Assembly: GCF_006345805.1 (NCBI RefSeq)
Contig: NC_043006.1
Coordinates: 11,780,001-11,844,000, forward strand
Source of the DNA: Octopus sinensis
Taxonomy: Eukaryota
Direction of reading: 5' to 3'
Length of the DNA: 64,000 nt
The position numbers and the translations under genes are program-made. Under the pieces are notes generated by a model. The model made no database searches and had not been told where the DNA came from. It saw nothing but the letters and a program-made list of their open reading frames with translations. Below, in pieces: positions 9,963 to 60,886 of this stretch (within the stretch, counting starts at the first letter, position 1; every line of letters starts with the position of its first letter).

Positions 9963-10474
9963 CATGGAAAACTGCAAGCATGAAAAGTAATATTCTTAAG
10001 ATTATAAACCTGGAAAAGTACAAGATAAGTTATTACACCTGGAAAAGTATAGGACAAGCTATTGCTTCTAGTAGAGTAAAGAGTAAGAAACTTTTTACTT
10101 AAAATATTGCAGCAAAATTTAAAATTTGAATATTAAAAATTATTTTATTATAGTTTACAAATTACACTATACTTATTTAAGCAGAATTTGGCTAATTTAC
10201 TACCTTAAATACAGAAAAAAGTGACTAATTAGACAAACTTACAAATTAGCTAAACAGTTTTGTAAAGTAAATTTAAAAGATGAGAATTGTAAAGAGTAAT
10301 AAATTAGAAGAACTGGCATTCTTCGCTGTGATATTTTAAGTAAAAGTTTCTTATTCTTTACTTTACTTGATGTAATAGCTTATCCTATACTTTTCCAGGT
10401 GTTATAACTCGTCGTGCACTTTTCCAGGTTTATAATTTGAAGAATATTACTTTTCATGCTCGCATTTCTCCATG
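9963..10474. mobile_element. MITE/fold-back element with ~150-bp imperfect inverted arms
   Basis: 9963-10117 is the reverse complement of 10322-10474. Each arm contains two cctggaaaagt sub-repeats. Confidence 0.75.
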
Positions 10475-13204: not shown

Positions 13205-14497
13205 CCCAGAACCACGCTAATAGCTTGTTATGTTTTCATTATTCTGTGTAAGATCCTTTCTTCTTTATTTAAAGATTCATCCGTTTTCGGGTGAACCACG
13301 CTAATAGCTTTTGAATGAAAATAGCCAATCTAAATATTCTTTTTCAGAAAATGATGGTTAAGGATACAGTTTAAGCCTACATTGTGTATATATTTAACAG
13401 AAAACCATAATAGTATTATAACATTTATTGACATAATGAATTGTTTAGCCACATGAGCAACAAGGAAGAAACGATCCGATTGTCGGACCTCCAAGACTGA
13501 CAGCTAGTGATTTAAGGGATATTGGCCGCGCGTTCAGTGGGAAACCTGGTCAAAGATGTAAAGACATTTTCACTGCCTCCGGACTTCCTCATGTACCAAA
13601 AACCACGCATACTTGGGACAATGGCTTCCGTGCAAGAACCACCAAAACTGCCTCCTCACAGAAGTCTGTGGCTTCATTAGGCCCAAATGTACATGACCTT
13701 AGACATGAGTTGTGTTCTGTTTTTGACGAAACTAACGGGTGGTTAAATGGTTGGGCCTATTTTGGAGATGAACGTCATCGACGTTTATGAGGTCAACAAA
13801 AGGGTGGGGGAGTCATGTTGTGAGATGGTATCATTGTGGACAGACTTTTTGGCCCAGTCAGGGTACCTGCAGAGGTCAAAGTGACCGCAACCGCCTTGCA
13901 TCCCTGCTAGGATGACGTCTGCCACTTCTAAGGAATTTCGTATTCATGCATGAAAAGACTTCTTTACACTCTGCTAGTACCCACCCAAATATTCTTAGGG
14001 CTTTACGGCATACAAGGTGAAAGATTGATGGTGTGACTGCCAGCATCTCCGGATCTCAAGCTTATCGAAAATCTTTGATCTATCATTAAAGAAGATGTTT
14101 AAGCTGATGGACGCCAATTTACGCCGAAAGATGTCTTATGGATGACCATCAAAGCGGCAGCAGAGGCAGTCCAACCTAATATTAAGAAATTGACAGATTC
14201 CATGACTAATAGGGTTTTTGAAGTTATCCGTCGAAATGGCGCTCATGTGGCTAAATAATTCATTATGTCAATAAATGTTATAATATTATTATAATTTCCT
14301 GTTAAATATTTACTCAATGTATGCTTAATGTGTATCATTAGCCTTCGTTTTCTGAAAAAAAATGTCTAGATGGGCTATTTTCTTTTAAAAGGTATTAGCG
14401 TGGTTCATGCAAAAACTGAAGAATCTGAAATACCAAAAAAGAAAGGACACTACACAGAATCATGAAACAATAACAATGGTGCTGACATAGCGTGCAA
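13205..14497 (+). mobile_element. Tc1-family DNA transposon, IR-DR type, internally deleted
   Basis: ~250-bp imperfect TIRs (13205-13458 and 14241-14497). Direct repeat gaaccacgctaatagctt at 13209 and 13293. Transposase remnants GGVML*DGIIVDRLFGPVRVP, FVFMHEK, PASPDLKLIENL*SIIKEDV. Inserted at TA. Confidence 0.88.
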
Positions 14498-17082: not shown

Positions 17083-20000
17083 TATATATTATTTGTTATT
17101 TATATATTGGTTTAAGTTGTATCACTGTTTGAGTTGCATCATACTGGTTTTTTATCTCAATTCATATTTTATATTTTATAAATATATATATATATATTAA
17201 TTATGATATAATATGTTATATTATATTACATATATTATATAATATTATATTATATTGTGTTATATATTACATTATAGCTGAATTCATAAGTATAAAATAT
17301 CACGTCAAAATTGAAAAGCAACAAGAAGAGAAGCTAAACTTTATTATTCACACATATACAAAAAGGAAAAATAGAAATAACATCACGTAGCGAGGTAATC
17401 TAAAGATTTGTAGAAGCATATTTGCTATTGTCAGAATGAATCACCTTTAGTATGCTAATTGTTTTAAGTGAACAAAATATCACTTGAAATCCAAAATGCG
17501 GCAGAGGAATAGCAAAAAACAAGGACTACAAAAAAAAAGCAAAGAAATTATGGAAGAAATATATTTTCCAACACAACAGCCAATTCTTTACTGATCAAAA
17601 GCTGTCTGGAAAAGGACACTGAAGAAACGAATTTCCAAAATCAAACAAAATATTGATGGAAAATATGATTATGTGGAACCAGAGACCATAAATTGTGCCT
17701 TCGTGAATCATAGTCCAATCATATTTCCGTAATGTCCATAATATCGACAAATCAAAAGCAATCCTCAAGGTTGTATTGATTTCTATCATTAGTACATGGC
17801 CGCAAATTTGGTGGGAGGGCATAGCGATTAAATCGATTCTAGATTTTGACTGATAATTATTTTATCGACACGAGAAGGATGAAAGATAGTGTTAACCACC
17901 GTGGCATTTGAACTCATGAAGTAAAGAGACTGACTAAATACCACAAGGCATTTAGATCGTAGCTCTCCGGTTTCAGCCACCCCACCACTGTTTTCGTCAA
18001 ATTATTCTGAAATGAATGAAAGGGGCAGTTTTTATATGCGTTTGGATATTTCTCAAATAAATTTGGTAAAATGATCGAATGCGAAGAACTGGAAAGAAGA
18101 TTTCTTAAATCTTTGCGAATGAAAATATAAAAGATTTCTATGATTAATGGATTGGATTTATATCATTATTTTGAGAACGGTGACGGATTGGCAGAACCAT
18201 TAGGAAAATTCCTTGTAGTATATGCCCCAGTTCGTTACGTTCTGTGTTCAAATCTCATCGATGTTGAATGTGTTCTTAACTTTTCAGGGACGATAACAAA
18301 AAAATTAGTACCGGGATCGATACAATCGACAAGCTGTCGTCTGCTACAAAATTGCTGATTTTGTGCTTAAATTCGAAACAGTTATTTTGGAAATAAGTCG
18401 CGAAAACCCAAACTAATTTGAAATAAGGAACTGAGTCTTCCAACTGTCTTATGATGATACGAAATAAAATCGCGAAGCTACCATTTATATTAAACATTTT
18501 CACACATATGCATAAATCTACATATAGATATATACTATGTATGTATGTATGTATGTATGTATGTATGTATTATGTATGTATGTATGTATTATGTATGTAT
18601 GTATTATGTATGTTTGTATGCATGTATGTATGTTATGTAGTATGTTTGTATGCATGTATGTATGTATGTATGTGTGTATGTATGTTTGTATGTTATGTAT
18701 GTATGTATGTATGTATGTATATGTGTAGGTTTGTATGCTTTGTGTTATGTATGTCTTCTCATGCATATTATTGCATATCTAGACATGCTCATATATATTC
18801 TTTTCTACTCTAGACACAAATCTCGAAATTTTGAGGGAGGAGATCGAAACAGTACGCAACTGGTACTTAGTTTATGGATCCCGAAAGGATGAAAGCCAAA
18901 GTCGACCTGCGGCGAATTTGAACTCAGAACGTAAAGACAGACGAATACCGCAAAGCATTTCGCCCGGCGTGCTAACGTTCTGCCAGCTCACCGCCAAGCA
19001 TGGAGCCCTGGATCTAGGTTAGAAACCGGCTCTTTGTCTATTGTCAAAATCTGAAATAAAACTGAATAATGACGTNNNNNNNNNNNNNNNNNNNNNNNNN
19101 NNNNNNNNNNNNNNNNNNNNNNNNNNNNNNNNNNNNNNNNNNNNNNNNNNNNNNNNNNNNNNNNNNNNNNNNNNNTATATATATTATTTGTTATTTATAT
19201 ATTGGTTTATGTGTATCACTGTTGAGTTGCATCATACTGTTTATCTCCAATTCATATTTTATATTTTATATATATATATATTTTATTATGATATATATGT
19301 TATATTAATTTACATTATATTATATCATTATATTTTTGTGTTATTATATTACATTATAGCTGAATTCATAAGTGATATAAATATCACGTCAGAAAATTGA
19401 AAAGCAACAAGAAAGAGAAGCTAAACTTATTATTCACACATATACAAAAAGGAAAAAATAGAAATAACATCACGTAGCGAGGTAATCTAAAGATTTGTAG
19501 AAGGCATATGTTGCTATTGTCAGAATGAATCACCTTTAGTATGCTATATTGTTTTAAGTGAACAAAATATCACTTGAATCCAAAATGCGGCAGAGGAATA
19601 GCAGAAAACAAGGACTACAAAAAAAAAAGCAAAGAAAATTATGGAAGAAATATATTTCCAAAACAACAGGCAATTCTTTACTGATTCAAAAGCTGTCTGG
19701 AAAAGGAAGCACTGAAGAAACGGAATTTCCAAAATCAAACAAAAATATTGATGGAAAATATGATTATGTGGAACCAGAGACCATAAATTGTGCCTTCGTG
19801 AATCATAGTCCAATCATATTCCGTAATGTCCATAAATATCGACAAATCAAAAGCAATCCTCAAGGTTGTATTGATTTCTATCATTAGTACATGGCCGCAA
19901 ATTTGGTGGGAGGGCATAGCGATTAAATCGATTCTAGATTTTGACTGATAATTATTTTATCGACACGAGAAGGATGAAAGATAGTGTTAACCACCGTGGC

Positions 20001-22283: not shown

Positions 22284-22399
22284 TTGAAGAGCAGAGCCGC
22301 TATGTGTCGCGTGCCGTATGCTAGAAGTAGATCACCTACAATCATCGGGGTGATCTACTTCTAGCATACGGCCGACCACATAGTGGCTCTGCCCTTCAA
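22284..22399. repeat. Hairpin palindrome
   Basis: Perfect 24-bp stem gccgtatgctagaagtagatcacc (22313-22336 with 22349-22372), 12-nt loop, imperfect extension to ~52 bp. Confidence 0.9.
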
Positions 22400-22419
22400 A
22401 ATATATATATATATATATC

Positions 22420-25721: not shown

Positions 25722-26108
25722 AAGATATATACATATTTAAACAAGGGCACTACATGAGTACTTATATCGCTAAAGATAGAGGTAAAAATAATACTCCTGT
25801 GCTACCGAATAATCACAAATCTATTACAGACATGAGAGGAAAATTATCAATGAACAGTACTAACGTCTTACCTATGCTGGATCAGCAGAAGCAAATGCTG
25901 TCTAACTTGGTACTGGTTTCGAAATTTAGCGCCAAATCGGTGCCTGATTTCTCATCAGCCAAAGTCTGCTAGATAACTGATATTGTTTCCTATCATGTCT
26001 GTAATAGATTTGTGACTATTCGGTGGTACAGAAGTATTTTTTGACTTCTACCTTTAGCATTATAAGTACTCATGTAGTACCCTTGTGTATATATGTACAT
26101 ATCTAATA
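25722..26108. repeat. Inverted repeat (~130-bp arms) around a hammerhead motif
   Basis: acaagggcactacatgagtacttata...cacaaatctattacagacatga versus tcatgtctgtaatagatttgtg...tataagtactcatgtagtacccttgt. Confidence 0.85.
25904..25966 (-). ncRNA. Minimal type-I hammerhead ribozyme motif (canonical core)
   Basis: Minus strand reads gactttgg-CTGATGA-gaaat(caggcaccgatttggcgctaa)atttc-GAAA-c-ca-g-TA-ccaagtt. Stem I ttgg/ccaa, stem II gaaat/atttc, very short stem III, GUA triplet. Confidence 0.7.
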
Positions 26109-31991: not shown

Positions 31992-32024
31992 TATATATAG
32001 ATAGATAGATAGATATAGATAGAT

Positions 32025-32212
32025 AGGGAGAGTTTACGATAAAAACAAAAGACGAAGACAGGTGGTATACAAAACAAACAGATGTCTTAGTATAACGCTC
32101 AGGAATAGAAAAAGCCTTACGTTTCGAGCCTACGCTCTTCTACAGAAAGGGACACAGAAAAAAAACAAGGAGAGAAAAAAAATTGTGTAGTGGCTAACGA
32201 TCTATCATGGCC
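32025..32212 (-). mobile_element. Family A2 element (CTGTAGAAGAGCGTAGGCTCGAAACGTA variant)
   Basis: Close inverted match to 34687-34872, flanked by TA/GATA repeats. Confidence 0.8.
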
Positions 32213-32706
32213 ACATATGTATATATATATATATATACACGTATACTTACATTCATATAATACACATACATATATCCATATAATACACACATACATACAC
32301 ACACACACGTATATATAATTTCGCCTGTCTATAACGTAATATTATTTATACCGAAGAAGTGCATCATACGGTAACACGTATTCAGTTTCGTAAGACAGCT
32401 GTGTTTCGTTATACGTGATATTTTCTGGATAATGGTGCCACTGCATCTAAGCGATATATTCTATGTCGTATATCTTCACATTGATATATAATGTGTCATA
32501 ATGTCACACGTTTTCATATTTTGTTTTCGCAAAATTTCGTGTTTGCTTTTTACAACTTTACACTATTGGTTGTCTCTATTACTTGATATTTACACCTATA
32601 AAACTAATATCCAACGTTTATATGTCTGCTTGCTGTCTGCACGTTTTTTTTTATTCCCTTTGCTCAACATCTCTCATTCTCTCTTTCCTTTTTTTTCATA
32701 TATGTA

Positions 32707-34579: not shown

Positions 34580-34683
<104 letters not shown>

Positions 34684-34686
34684 GTC

Positions 34687-34870
34687 GCCATGATAGATCG
34701 TTAGCTACTACACACATTTTTTCTCTCCTTGTTTTTTCTGTGTTCCTTTCTGTAGAAGAGCGTAGGCTCGAAAAGTTAAAGACTTTTTCTATTCCTGAGC
34801 GTTATACTAATACATCTGTCTGCTTTGTACACCACCTGTCTTCGTCTTTTGTTTTTTTCGTAAATCTCCC

Positions 34871-34872
<2 letters not shown>
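34687..34872 (+). mobile_element. Family A2 element
   Basis: gccatgatagatcgttagctactacac...ctttCTGTAGAAGAGCGTAGGCTCGAAAAGTTaaag...gtaaatctcccta, between (TA)n arrays. Confidence 0.8.
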
Positions 34873-34904
<32 letters not shown>

Positions 34905-35450: not shown

Positions 35451-35650
35451 ACTCATCATATCTATACCATTTGTATATGACCAGGTATGTTGGAATGATT
35501 CTTGCAGTCTATTCGCCAAGGATTTTGGTAAATGGTGAAAGTTGATAAATTCTTTGATACTTTCTGTTTTTTCATTATATTCTTCTGTTCCTTGATAGAG
35601 CCGTAACATTATTGAAGACACATTACCGAATATAGCGGCACTCAGCAATG
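35451..35650 (-). CDS. Internal coding exon of an Erg-type (KCNH2/6/7-like) voltage-gated K+ channel: end of S6 plus C-linker
   Basis: Translates to (A)LLSAAIFGNVSSIMLRLYQGTEEYNEKTESIKEFINFHHLPKSLANRLQESFQHTWSYTNGIDMMS, which aligns without gaps to hERG [21 protein letters not shown]...YFQHAWSYTNGIDMNA. Acceptor ccttttaatAG at 35652-35651, donor GTAAGT at 35450-35445. Length 200 bp, phase 1 to phase 0, matching my recollection of the equivalent hERG exon 8. Confidence 0.95.
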
Positions 35651-44668: not shown

Positions 44669-44671
<3 letters not shown>

Positions 44672-44852
44672 GTGACAATTATTCGGTAGCCATGATAAAA
44701 TTCCGAGTTTCGGATGCCGAGGTGAAAATCCACGGCAATTTTTCATAGTATTTTTTTCGATGGCCGAATAACTAAAGAGATGGCGGCGTGGATTTCCACC
44801 TCGGCATCCAAAACTCGGAGTTTTATCATGGCTACCGAATAATTGTCACATA
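44669..44852. repeat. Inverted repeat (66-bp arms)
   Basis: 44669-44734 versus 44787-44852 with few mismatches, abutting (TA)n. Confidence 0.9.
44768..44826 (+). ncRNA. Degenerate hammerhead-like motif in a fold-back element
   Basis: ataa-CTAAAGA-gatg...gtgga(tt)tccac...catc-c-AAAA-ctc-g-gag-TT-ttat. The opposite arm retains CGAAAC (gtttcg at 44707-44712). Confidence 0.45.
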
Positions 44853-47291: not shown

Positions 47292-47341
<50 letters not shown>

Positions 47342-47405
47342 TCCCGGGTTGATTCGGGGTTAACCACAGTAAATAAGGTACTCAATACACAGCAGAGTAA
47401 AATTA

Positions 47406-47540
47406 ATTTATTATATAGAAGGAGCTTCTACAGGACTAGTACTGTTTCATTCAAGAGAAATCTTCAGGAAGCTTTCTCTTGAAGATTTCTCTTGAATGAA
47501 ACAGTACTAGTCCTGTAGAAGCTCCTTCTATATAATAAAT
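47406..47540. repeat. Perfect 61-bp inverted repeat with 13-nt loop
   Basis: 47406-47466 is the exact reverse complement of 47480-47540. Confidence 0.93.
47423..47473 (-). ncRNA. Minimal type-I hammerhead ribozyme motif
   Basis: Minus strand reads agcttc-CTGAAGA-t-ttc(tctt)gaa-t-GAAA-cag(tactagtc)ctg-TA-gaagct. 6-bp stem I, 3-bp stem III with palindromic ACTAGT in the loop, GUA triplet. The stem II closing pair is U-U rather than G-C. Confidence 0.7.
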
Positions 47541-49009
47541 ATATATATATATATATATATTCTTTTTTTTTCAATACATTCGTGTGTGTGTGCACGTACA
47601 CTTGTATATGTATGTATTTCGATTTATACTAAAACACATTTTCTGCAGCTTGTGTTCTTGAAATGAAGATGAAAATTAAAAGCTGTGGAAACAAAGTTAT
47701 TTGAAACAAAATCGAATATCCCATTACGTTTGGAAACGCCAAATCCAATAAAACTATGCCATATTCAATGTATGACTGTGAAAAGAAATCAAAGCAGAAG
47801 CAAATATGGACGTACTCATGTTTCTCTTTGCTCAATGAAATTTCATGCGAAATAATATAACAGATAATACAAAGTGTATATTGATAAATATTATCTCCCA
47901 GTGTTATGATCACGTAATGGCCATAACACAAGAATGTTATAAGGTAATATAGATTTACGATATTTTTTCTTCTGTTCTACTTCGATAACAACCTGGCATG
48001 CGTTTTCTTAATCGATAAATATTTTATTTGTCTCGTGGGCGGCTCTTTGTCAGAGATGGCAGCAGACCAGACTAAATACATTACAGTGTTTAGTTTCATC
48101 TTTCTATTATCCAGAATTAGAATCATTTGGCAGGTGACTTCAAATTTTATTTCTCCAAAAGTAGATCAAATAACAGTGATATATACTAAAATCGATTAAA
48201 ATTTATTCTTCCAATTATTTCACTCATAAAATAAATATCAATAATATTCAGTTAGATTATACATCTTGGCTCTAACCTTCTATCTTGTTGGTATCGAATG
48301 CTAAATCTCTTACTAATTGTGACTGACAACTGATTATATTCTGCTAAAAGACTAAAGCAATGCTATTGTCTGAATTTCTATTCATTTCACTTCTCTTGTC
48401 TCGACAATGACCTCTGAAGAATCTAAGGGTGGCGGCACACATCTAAATCCAACTGCACTATCCTTAATTAAATGAAAGCAGTTGTAAAGAAATTCTCCGT
48501 GTAGAAATCTGCAAAATTTAACTATTTGCACGACGTATATATTATGTACAATACAGTATTAATGCTTTATGATCTCAAACGTAAGATCTCTTTCCTGCAG
48601 ACGGAGGCTCATCTCATCCTACGTTAAATGCATCCATACAGCAACATTCTCTAATGGAATTAATCTACAAGCATCATTATGGATCGCCGAGGCCCCAGAA
48701 ACAACTGATGAATATAATCCATCAACTACCGCGAGTGTTACGTTCCAAAACCTTCCATGGAAATAATTAAAATCTAAAAACTATAGATATCTATTCAGCC
48801 GCAGGAACCCGGATATACTGAGGGGTACGCGATATAGATTTACACATACTAACCAGAAAAATCCGCGATATACTGAGTGCGCGATAGGTGAACTGCGACG
48901 ATGTATATATTACACATACATGCACCCACAAACACACACATGTACACATACATATATACATACACTTATAGAAATGCATTTATACATTTACATATATTCA
49001 TCAATGAAG

Positions 49010-58665: not shown

Positions 58666-59533
58666 ATCTGTAGAATAGACAATTGAAGAAACGTTACTGG
58701 CAAAATAAATTACCCATCTTATGTAAAACGTCTCTTTTCCCAGTTCTCTTCTTTTCTTTCATAAAATAACAAAGAAAATTCCGATATTAGAATGATGCAC
58801 TCTAAATTGACAATAACAACGATCAATAAATCACCACAGCTGTTGTTCCAATCTGTTATTTTTTCAATGATGGGAACCAAGGGTAAGACACTCAAATGGA
58901 AATAATAGCTAATATGAGTTTGAAAAGCATAGAAAAAGATTGGAAAATAATATTAATGTATATTTTTGATTTTACATTGAACTGCTAATTAAAATCGAAC
59001 TTTTAATAAAAAATCCTACATAAACATGTTTTATTTTTTTGTCTTTTCGAATTTAGTTGGGCAGAAGCGAGAGGAACTGAATCAAACTGTATACTTTTGT
59101 AAATTTTATTAGAAAAAATTCAGCTCAAACAGTAAAGAATACAACTAAATGCTATTTTGCATATGCTTCTGTCTTGATTAATTAAATTCTTTTTCCGAGG
59201 CCGAAAGGCACGCTATCTTTCCTAGTAGAGTTACTTCGCATAACACATCTTTCTTTTCGCTATGTCGAAAGACATTGTATAAACATTTGTTTAGTTTTGT
59301 ATTTTTCGTTTTTCACTATTTATTTGCCTGATTTTATACTTTTATATTTTCTTCCTCTTCTCCCTACAACTTTACCATTCAGTCTACAGACTTCATTTCT
59401 TCTCTTAACACACTTGCCTTATTGTTTTCTATTCTTGTTTCTTTATCGTGTTGGTGCGTTCATATCCGAGTAGCTCGTGTTTCGGACTCTGCCAAATTGA
59501 ACGCTGTTGTTGAAAGGCTTCGAAACTGTAATG

Positions 59534-59956
59534 GGATCTTTTCGGTTTGAACGGCAGTTTTTTCTAGCGGTGTCATATGAAATTGTCTCCCATAGTTATG
59601 ACCCTAGTATCGATCTATTGCATTTCAATCTGTTTTAAGGTTAGGGTTAGGGTTAGGGGTGGGGGAAGGGTATCTTTTTTCTTAACAAATGTAAATAAAC
59701 CCAATCTGTTTCTTAAACGAGGAACATGTTCATATGGCACAGAATGATTTCTTTTACCTCAATGGACGTCATTGATTGGTTGAAATTGCAGAAATTGAAG
59801 AAAAAAACAACAAATACCTTACAAACTATAGAATTTTCTCAAGAAAGCCAAGGGAAAAAGATGTTTTATAAACACATTCTACCAGTATACGAAGTTTAAA
59901 ATTTTTTAGTTACCTAGAAATTATGTTAAAAACTGCCGTTCAAACCGAAAAGATCC
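59534..59956. mobile_element. Non-autonomous DNA transposon (Merlin-like MITE) with 8-bp TSD
   Basis: Perfect ~29-bp TIRs GGATCTTTTCGGTTTGAACGGCAGTTTTT. TSD ctgtaatg at 59526-59533 and 59957-59964. Superfamily inferred from GG termini and 8-bp TSD. Confidence 0.9.
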
Positions 59957-60886
59957 CTGTAATGGTATTTGGTTGGTCACTGATGACGGATTCAGCTTGT
60001 TTGCCTTTCTGTTTTTTCTCCTCTTAAATTCTTTCGTTTTCCACCTTCGTGCCACATTGTCATTGTTATGTATATGGTTTATACACTGCAATGTCTGCTA
60101 ATTCACCAATAACTAGATGGTATATAATCATCGTTTACCGTGTTAGAGATTTAGTAGTCTGATATAATGTTGATTTCTCTATCTATAGAAGTCATCCACA
60201 TTACAACCTTACAATCTAGCAGCACAATATTGAAGTACAACTAACTATTTGTTTCTAGCACCCGTTTACTCTCTGCTACTCATCCACTCTTTTGTCACTC
60301 AATATCGAATGCAATTTATGAATATTTAAAAATAAACATACACCGCGATCGAATACACTTAAAGTATAACATTATTGGAAAAGATTTTAAATTTATCACA
60401 CGAAGAACATTAAAATACTTTATGAGCAAAACAATGAAAAATTGAAAACAAAGAATAAAATTTGATACTGAATGTCTAAAACTGTCGATAAGTAGAGAAC
60501 AAGTTTGGAAAATATCTGAAGTGATTATTCTGTGAATTTATAAATATTGTCCGTGAGTTTTATGACGAGATATCACATGAGATTTAGATTGTATATACAG
60601 TATCTGAGATATATAATCGCAGTAGAAGTTCACCTGCCGTCTTCCCAAACTGTAACCACGGGGAGAATTAAACTACTCGATTTTAACAACCCTTACACCT
60701 TTAAAATAATCGGCTTAAAAGTTGTACAGTTGTAAGATATCCGTTGTTATCAACCGCGAATAAGTATATTCATAATCAATCGCATTCATCCATGACCATC
60801 TCGTCTTTTTATGCTATTTCATGGGTTAAATTATCTAATTTGTAATTCTCTTTATAGAAGACTTAGAACGTGTATTAAGGGAGATT

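What the first reader, a model, noticed from the sequence alone, without database searches (positions are those of the whole stretch)
47340..47540. Perfect 61-bp hairpin built from a hammerhead unit and its truncated inverted copy
The left arm encodes a full hammerhead on the minus strand (6-bp stem I AGCUUC/GAAGCU, GUA site). The right arm is an exact inverted copy that begins inside the CUGAAGA box. Zero mismatches imply a recent event. Inverted partial pLTRs are a known Penelope insertion signature. The antisense arm would sequester the ribozyme as dsRNA, which suggests a self-silencing arrangement (inference).
Basis: partly seen in the sequence, partly recalled or inferred. Interest (0 to 1): 0.7.

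Follow-up and report, generated by a model that had tools for sequence, protein, structure and literature searches.

The report
Twin-copied stub of Penelope retrotransposon
This perfect hairpin is one of many hundreds of short stubs that a Penelope-type jumping gene has left in TA repeats across this genome, likely made when both ends of the cut DNA each copied the front of the same RNA and the two copies were joined head to head, which would explain these elements' mirror-image insertions.

Summary
The hairpin is real (61-bp arms, 13-nt loop, type I hammerhead shape on the minus strand) but not a one-off. It is the shortest insertion product of an abundant, young Hydra-clade Penelope-like element (RT + GIY-YIG) that inserts in (TA)n: 6,269 exact ribozyme-bearing arms genome-wide, with 29 short hairpins among 61 consecutive loci. 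All 47 two-armed insertions in that sample have one arm with the tail and one without. Either arm can be the longer, the ORF can lie in either, and some arm pairs share no sequence, so the second arm is not a fold-back copy. Arms stop sharply at the ribozyme's first base, 29 nt below a TATA box, often with an extra G; few stop at the cleavage site. Best reading (inferred): two target-primed cDNAs copy one uncleaved, capped RNA, run off its 5' end and are joined by microhomology. Self-silencing is a by-product at most. Inverted Penelope arms are known; I did not find this mechanism in the papers searched. The scan's own unreviewed notes reached similar readings on other DNA of this and another genome. 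Cleavage and RNA start are untested.

The parts
47294..47339 (.). (TA)23 target microsatellite, left side
   Evidence: sequence; the fetched copies are flanked by (TA)n
47340..47473 (-). Arm 1: tail-bearing copy of the element's end repeat, +1 (47473) to +134; inferred first cDNA, primed at the tail end
   Evidence: same sequence follows the ORF in L063 and precedes the ORF in L106/L179
47340..47405 (-). One-sided tail (66 nt not repeated in arm 2), the stretch between the two inferred priming sites
   Evidence: loose ends into (AT)n at both sites in short-read contigs
47423..47473 (-). Type I hammerhead motif of Hydra-clade form (stem I 47473-47468/47428-47423, core 47467-47461, stem II 47459-47450, stem III 47445-47430, predicted cut 47429/47428); activity untested
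   Evidence: published Hydra motifs; no Rfam match
47414..47432 (-). Predicted competing 8-bp hairpin (+42..+60) that takes up the cleavage-site strand and lies just upstream of the second priming site
   Evidence: folding, (prediction only)
47406..47466 (.). Left arm of the perfect 61-bp inverted repeat
47467..47479 (.). Loop/junction: 47467-47473 = +7..+1, present only in arm 1; 47474-47479 = templated insertion (join to +14, run to +24, slip back to +8 through a 4-nt TGAA match)
   Evidence: sequence; the first-step junction without the slip occurs in L002 and L012 and in contigs of runs X15 and X16
47480..47540 (+). Arm 2: tail-less copy, +8 to +68, ending in the AT-rich site against (TA)n; inferred second cDNA
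47540..47559 (.). (TA)10 target microsatellite, right side
   Evidence: sequence
35451..35650 (-). Host context (approximate bounds): S6/C-linker exon of an ERG/KCNH2-like potassium channel gene; the pore exon lies about 2.2-2.6 kb beyond the window end, so the hairpin is in a ~30-kb intron with the ribozyme in the gene's sense
   Evidence: (E 1e-21 to KCNH2)

Best explanation
The hairpin is a 200-bp stub of a Hydra-clade Penelope-like retrotransposon, likely formed when the two ends of a cut in (TA)n each primed a separate cDNA on one uncleaved, probably capped RNA, both cDNAs ran off the RNA's 5' end at the hammerhead's first base, and the two were joined head to head. Shown: family identity, (TA)n target, two fixed end sites about 70 nt apart, one tail arm plus one tail-less arm per insertion, independent arm lengths, a sharp 5' edge at +1, and few ends at the cleavage site. 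Inferred: transcription start at +1 from the TATA box at -29; cap-templated extra G; both cDNAs from one RNA, the tail-primed one displacing the other (or stopping at it, which gives non-overlapping arms); joining by 1-6-nt microhomology with templated insertions. Priming near the RNA's front gives stubs, priming at a downstream end repeat gives long insertions with the same two-arm layout. The stub has no promoter and is probably a dead end; masking of the ribozyme by the second arm is a side effect.
For: Family: ORF with RWR, DKT, YRDD, CxCX5C, GIY-YIG without CCHH, CxxC/CxH matches the Hydra description. Abundance: 1,495 exact tail 24-mers, 6,269 exact core arms, 238 zero-loop junctions centred on the stem I 5' AGCT versus 1 centred on the other AGCT. 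In 61 consecutive loci: 29 short and 18 long pairs, 47 of 47 tail + tail-less. Short pairs: tail arm longer 9, tail-less longer 9, equal 11 (hand count). Of 20 ORF loci, the ORF runs into the tail arm in 10 and the tail-less arm in 7, 3 unresolved; in L241, L244, L248, L251 the opposite tail arm is kilobases shorter. Six loci have arms with no shared sequence (L118, L233, L291, L293, L301, L309), three stopping at about +66 to +71 beside the second site. Arm haplotypes agree in 30 of 31 typed pairs against 0.26 by chance. 26 of 64 truncated arms score at +1, no other position above 5 (two of the 26 run 15-25 nt further, one other arm is a misfiled long arm). TATAAA/CATAAA lies 29 nt before +1 in 35 of 42 arms while the spacer varies. 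Base before +1 is G in 85 and C in 15 of the first 100 of 333 hits; G not explained by either neighbour in L211/212, L228, L293, L180, L184 and a joint in run X15. Only 14 hits, 9 of them true truncations, start at the cleavage site. In vitro, a Poseidon PLE protein cuts and extends both strands, starts at two internal sites that bound the tail, and uses unprocessed RNA (PMC11167929, parts 1-2 read).
Against: No RNA data: start site, cap and cleavage are not observed. In about 20 of the first 24 G junctions the G could come from the partner arm. The AGCT overlap pushes both arms of zero-loop junctions to +1 and inflates that peak. Small length differences between short arms could be later deletions in an unstable palindrome. 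Haplotype agreement could reflect one subfamily being active at a time rather than one RNA molecule. Two-tail insertions exist (L215, L302). The unbiased sample is the first 38 Mb of one contig and requires an exact 29-mer; the 20 loci were picked by me's list. The Poseidon study saw no difference in start site between strands, unlike the strict tail/tail-less pairing here.
Confidence: 0.75

Rival explanations
1. Fold-back (self-priming): one cDNA folds on itself and copies back to the AT-rich site, or priming occurs on an antisense template, as proposed for palindromic Penelope junctions in Adineta.
For: Arms are nearly identical within a copy; many junctions carry short templated insertions that look like snap-back synthesis, including this one; proposed in PMC3846280 (passages).
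Against: Tail-less arms hold sequence absent from the tail arm, up to a whole ORF; six loci have non-overlapping arms; 4 of 5 stem-I-microhomology junctions have the tail-less arm as the long one; both arms can carry the extra base (L211/212, L219/220). Local snap-back may still shape the junction.
Confidence: 0.08
2. Two cDNAs, but from two separate RNA molecules (or a circular RNA) held by an RT dimer.
For: Explains independent arm lengths equally well; PAc is predicted to be a dimer; multi-unit arrays of this repeat exist in both arms of an insertion (L311, L197-L201), which a circular template would explain; one discordant loop III base in L125.
Against: 47 of 47 pairs are tail + tail-less; 30 of 31 haplotypes agree; tail arms that stop beside the second priming site suggest a shared template; stubs end at +1, which a circle would not impose.
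Confidence: 0.12
3. A master palindromic mini-element (MITE- or SINE-like) that was copied as a hairpin, with the antisense arm kept to silence the ribozyme or feed small-RNA silencing.
For: 238 identical zero-loop junctions; the hairpin is very stable (-114 kcal/mol) and abolishes predicted stem I pairing; this copy lies in the sense strand of a host intron.
Against: The same junction recurs on at least five haplotype backgrounds (L125, L134, L154, L163, L174 and the major type), junctions vary widely, long insertions have the same layout, and stubs lack the TATA box.
Confidence: 0.04
4. Library or assembly fold-back artefact.
For: Perfect palindromes are a known long-read artefact (own knowledge); the junction private to this copy was not covered in four runs laid, which proves nothing either way.
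Against: Unique flanks on both sides; inverted loose ends at +1 in 22 contigs of X15 and 4 of X16; the L002-type junction in contigs of X15 and X16.
Confidence: 0.01

Closest known systems
Hydra clade of C-terminal EN+ Penelope-like elements (Craig et al. 2021, PMC8557442; read: passages, section 11, supplement part 2 and search hits)
   Same: All listed protein motifs, (TA)n insertion, hammerhead in the end repeat with U and U flanking stem II (14 of 26 Hydra rows in File S2), inverted 5'-truncated copy, one-sided tail.
   Different: Different family from Hydra-1_Obim (other hammerhead; three motifs of this unit not found in the supplement). About 3-4 kb simple-repeat 3' UTR against <3 kb total for described members; tail about 70 nt against 30-40; about half of sampled insertions are ~200-bp hairpins.
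Poseidon_Ac (PAc) in vitro system (Frangieh et al. 2024, PMC11167929; parts 1-2 of 4 read, plus term search)
   Same: Two internal RT start sites bounding the tail, extension of both DNA strands, unprocessed RNA as template, AT-rich target.
   Different: Other clade; there priming needs no homology and both strands use both sites; the paper does not link this to inverted arms (the one 'inverted' hit is a reagent). Here both sites resemble (TA)n and are used one per end.
L1 twin priming (own knowledge, not read here)
   Same: Second target strand primes internally on the same RNA and gives an inversion joined by microhomology.
   Different: In L1 the arms do not overlap and the internal site varies; here the site is fixed and the first cDNA usually runs through it, so the arms duplicate each other.
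Metazoan non-LTR retrozymes and PLE minimal hammerheads (PMC4209133, parts 1-2 read; preprint 10.64898/2026.07.22.740005, part 1 of 5 read)
   Same: Non-coding PLE-derived repeat with a type I hammerhead; near-palindromic stem-loop III; tandem arrays of this unit exist elsewhere in G000.
   Different: This copy is an inverted pair, not a head-to-tail tandem; no G10.1-C11.1 pair; ends are set by +1 and the priming sites, not by the cleavage site.

Membership tests
Hydra-clade PLE | Single ORF with RT and C-terminal GIY-YIG endonuclease | tested here: met
   (by motif; Pfam gave no RT or GIY-YIG hit)
Hydra-clade PLE | RWK-type N-terminal motif and DKT in place of DKG | tested here: met
   RWR in L106, DKT in L089 and L092 (definition)
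Hydra-clade PLE | CxCX5C linker, no CCHH, CxxC and CxH around the conserved E and N | tested here: met
   CNCPDKTTC; one C between VY and YIG; CDLC and CTH/CMH
Hydra-clade PLE | Insertion into (TA)n | tested here: met
Hydra-clade PLE | Hammerhead motif in the pLTR; pLTR precedes the ORF in partial tandems | tested here: met
   (52 pLTR-ORF junctions at <=1 mismatch)
Hydra-clade PLE | Phylogenetic placement with described Hydra RTs | not tested
   no tree built; published alignment snippets compared by eye only
Type I hammerhead ribozyme | CUGANGA and GAAA boxes, three stems, NUH site | tested here: met
   among 46 arms matching the scan pattern N7 was A 30/U 16 and loop II varied (the pattern fixed the other positions)
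Type I hammerhead ribozyme | G10.1-C11.1 pair closing stem II | tested here: not met
   U and U at these places; common in published Hydra motifs but unlike the PLE consensus in PMC4209133
Type I hammerhead ribozyme | Rfam covariance-model match | tested here: not met
Type I hammerhead ribozyme | Self-cleavage | not testable with these tools
   needs in vitro assay; insertions rarely start at the cut site
Non-LTR retrozyme | Head-to-tail tandem of units each with a complete hammerhead | tested here: not met
   this copy is an inverted pair; arrays of the unit exist at other loci
MITE / non-autonomous DNA transposon | Fixed terminal inverted repeats and fixed length | tested here: not met
   one-sided tail, variable junctions and lengths, link to an RT ORF

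The most novel reading that the evidence does not exclude
Penelope-like elements of this clade insert by obligatory double target-primed reverse transcription: one RNP uses two fixed sites on one capped, uncleaved RNA, one per DNA end, and strand displacement duplicates the arms. The transcription start sits exactly on the hammerhead's first base, and a built-in hairpin keeps the ribozyme off in the insertion template. This would account for PLE inverted repeats, the one-sided tail and thousands of MITE-like hairpins in one mechanism, replacing the self-priming model.
Probability: 0.55. Interest if true: 0.7.

Novelty: new member of a known kind. Interest (0 to 1): 0.48.

Why it matters
How PLEs form tandem and inverted insertions is named as unresolved in PMC8557442 (passage), and the printed proposal I found is self-priming on an antisense template (PMC3846280). 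This family gives thousands of young insertions whose arm geometry separates the models and names the exact priming sites and RNA start for an in vitro test. It also warns that such stubs can be misfiled as MITEs, SINEs or miRNA-like hairpins, and it points to a source of perfect intronic dsRNA (here in a KCNH2-like channel gene). The single locus itself is ordinary: one of many.

Tried and rejected
Rfam: no hammerhead match; miRNA hits lie far below gathering scores and mostly on simple repeats. Pfam on three ORFs: nothing above cut-off. RNA runs: no RNA holder listed; only contigs were available, which cannot show start, end or strand; the junction private to this copy was not covered in the four runs laid. 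Hot spot due to AGCT self-complementarity alone: rejected, 238 versus 1. RT stalling on ribozyme structure: unlikely, because the edge is at the 5' side of stem I, which is already unwound by then (inference). A 3' splice site at the AG of +1/+2: rejected, arms keep the AG and show no fixed upstream exon; stubs and long copies are colinear over +1..+134, so no leader intron in this family. Templates cut by the ribozyme: rare. Target-site duplication: not readable inside (TA)n. First energy evaluation of the active fold was invalid (length slip) and was redone; the 'alt' probabilities printed used a wrong index and are not used, only the printed structures. Literature: seven searches listed no paper tying PLE inverted arms to twin priming or cap run-off; Pyatkov 2004 is not held and Evgen'ev and Arkhipova 2005 and Arkhipova 2006 were not looked up, so an earlier statement of the model may exist; bioRxiv supplements are closed. 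PMC13282606 and PMC2377424 (passages only) gave no description of these stubs; D. virilis Penelope has a TATA-less internal promoter, unlike the TATA box inferred here.

Full report
Observation. The inverted repeat is exact: arms 47406-47466 and 47480-47540, 61 bp, 13-nt loop, inside (TA)23 and (TA)10. The minus strand from 47473 (called +1) to 47423 has type I hammerhead anatomy with a GUA site. Rfam does not recognise it, and U/U stand where most hammerheads have G10.1-C11.1, but 14 of the 26 Hydra-clade rows in File S2 of PMC8557442 have the same U...U form.

It is a family, not a single event. A search of G000 with the unit scored 40 places at 96-100% identity, with 38 further matches on the opposite strand beside them; 29 of the 30 loci fetched carry an inverted arm (this query favours hairpins). 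Exact counts: 1,495 tail 24-mers, 6,269 ribozyme-core 29-mers, 1,286 arms that continue into upstream sequence, many as divergent pairs, 238 zero-loop junctions. The first 100 core hits form about 65 loci; I examined the first 61. They hold 29 short hairpins and 18 long pairs. Extrapolated, that is roughly 4,000 insertions, about half of them short hairpins; this is a rough estimate from one contig.

The parent element. Following the sequence upstream of the ribozyme led to copies with an ORF. In L063 the ORF, a 3.9-kb simple-repeat 3' region, the hammerhead and the tail are colinear; in L106 the same unit precedes the ORF start, and 52 such junctions were found. The protein has RWR, DKT, YRDD, CxCX5C, a GIY-YIG domain without CCHH, and CxxC/CxH, the features given for the Hydra clade. 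It is not Hydra-1_Obim. No tree was built.

The second arm is a separate cDNA. All 47 pairs in the sample have one tail arm and one tail-less arm (L164's second arm carries part of the tail; two-tail cases L215 and L302 were seen outside the sample). Among the 29 short pairs the tail arm is longer in 9, the tail-less arm in 9, equal in 11 (hand count). Among 20 ORF-bearing loci the ORF runs into the tail arm in 10, into the tail-less arm in 7, unresolved in 3; in L241, L244, L248 and L251 the opposite tail arm is kilobases shorter. Six loci have arms with no shared sequence (L118; L233; L291, L293, L301, L309, the last four among 20 loci that I picked's list). A fold-back of the tail cDNA cannot give these. 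Three of them stop at about +66 to +71, next to the second priming site, as in L1 twin priming (recalled). Arm haplotypes agree in 30 of 31 typed pairs against 0.26 expected at random, which fits one RNA but also fits one subfamily active at a time. PMC11167929 shows in vitro, for another clade, extension of both strands, two internal start sites bounding the tail, and unprocessed RNA as the main template. PMC3846280 instead read palindromic junctions as self-priming on an antisense template.

Why the stubs end where they do. 26 of 64 truncated arms score at +1 and no other position has more than 5 (L143 and L175 run 15-25 nt further, L150 is a misfiled long arm; the pattern hides ends beyond about +23, and AGCT overlap inflates +1). 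A palindrome on the other AGCT occurs once against 238. A TATAAA/CATAAA box lies 29 nt before +1 in 35 of 42 arms, 28-30 in all, while the spacer sequence differs between subfamilies (the scan required the box). Where the genomic T before +1 is replaced by G or C, it is G in 85 of the first 100 of 333. In about 20 of the first 24 G cases the partner arm could supply the G, but in L211/212, L228, L293, L180, L184 and one short-read joint it comes from neither side. I read this as run-off at a capped transcription start; it is inferred, with no RNA data. Only 14 hits, 9 of them real truncations, begin at the cleavage site, against about 1,500 tail arms, so the template is mostly uncut. Folding predicts why: a hairpin at +42..+60 takes the cleavage-site strand, and stem I pairing falls from about 1.0 (+1..+51) to 0.02 (+1..+137).

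This copy. Arm 1 reaches +1; the junction joins to +14, runs to +24 and slips back to +8 through TGAA, which is why arm 2 starts inside the CUGAAGA box. The same first-step junction occurs in L002 and L012 and in short-read contigs of X15 and X16; inverted loose ends at +1 occur in 22 and 4 contigs of those runs. The junction private to this copy was not covered in four runs. Identical arms are common (11 of 29), so they date the copy only weakly. The insertion lies in a ~30-kb intron of a KCNH2-like gene on the minus strand, so the pre-mRNA would carry the antisense arm first and form a -114 kcal/mol hairpin with no predicted stem I pairing.

What is known and what is not. Inverted truncated copies, one-sided tails, hammerheads in pLTRs and (TA)n targeting are all described. 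Seven searches listed no paper that derives the inverted arm from a second target-primed cDNA or describes cap run-off stubs; several older PLE papers could not be read. I stated this reading before opening the scan's notes; unreviewed notes on other DNA of this genome and of another genome reach similar readings and are not independent evidence.

Verdict. A real, ordinary member of a large new Hydra-clade family; the family's geometry makes an open mechanistic question testable. Interest 0.48; family identity about 0.95, mechanism 0.75.

Noticed in passing
G000:C16:42874700-42877900 (L311) and G000:C9:87420563-87422221 (L197-L201): Head-to-tail arrays of this unit (about 247-bp and 420-bp repeats: TATA box + hammerhead + tail + ORF start) present in both arms of a head-to-head insertion; retrozyme-like, with their own promoter, and a possible sign of a circular template and an active ribozyme in tandem form.
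   Followed up: partly
L177, L180, L184, L189, L204: Short direct tandems in which the ORF's first 40-300 nt are joined to about +1 of a second unit, in two cases with an extra G: looks like RT jumping from the RNA's 5' end to another RNA end.
   Followed up: partly
window 22284-22405: Second imperfect hairpin (24-bp perfect core, 12-nt loop) ending at (TA)n; possibly a stub of another element.
   Followed up: no
window 32020-32230 and 34680-34880: Inverted pair of about 200-bp arms 2.5 kb apart in (TA)n, with a hammerhead-like stretch and a deviant core; the same end sequence flanks L020, L042 and L225. Probably another Penelope-like family.
   Followed up: no
window 44669-44852, 25749-26078, 59533-59957, 9977-10460, 13414-14285: Further inverted-repeat pairs of MITE or DNA-transposon look.
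   Followed up: no
L025:1695-1960: A piece of this element's tail fused to an unrelated 125-bp segment that is itself inverted around a (TA)n run.
   Followed up: no
L063:3650-7300 and other long copies: The element carries a 3-4-kb 3' region of (TA)/(TG) simple repeats that differs in length between copies and collects other insertions; the family may spread microsatellite DNA and its own targets.
   Followed up: no
window ~17600-19950: A roughly 2.1-kb local duplication (same reading frames at 17861-17598 and 19956-19738; repeats at 18510/20603 and 18880/20974).
   Followed up: no
window 35451-35650 and G000:C10 about 11846166-11846630: Exons of an ERG/KCNH2-like potassium channel gene on the minus strand; a further exon lies about 115 kb beyond the window end.
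   Followed up: partly
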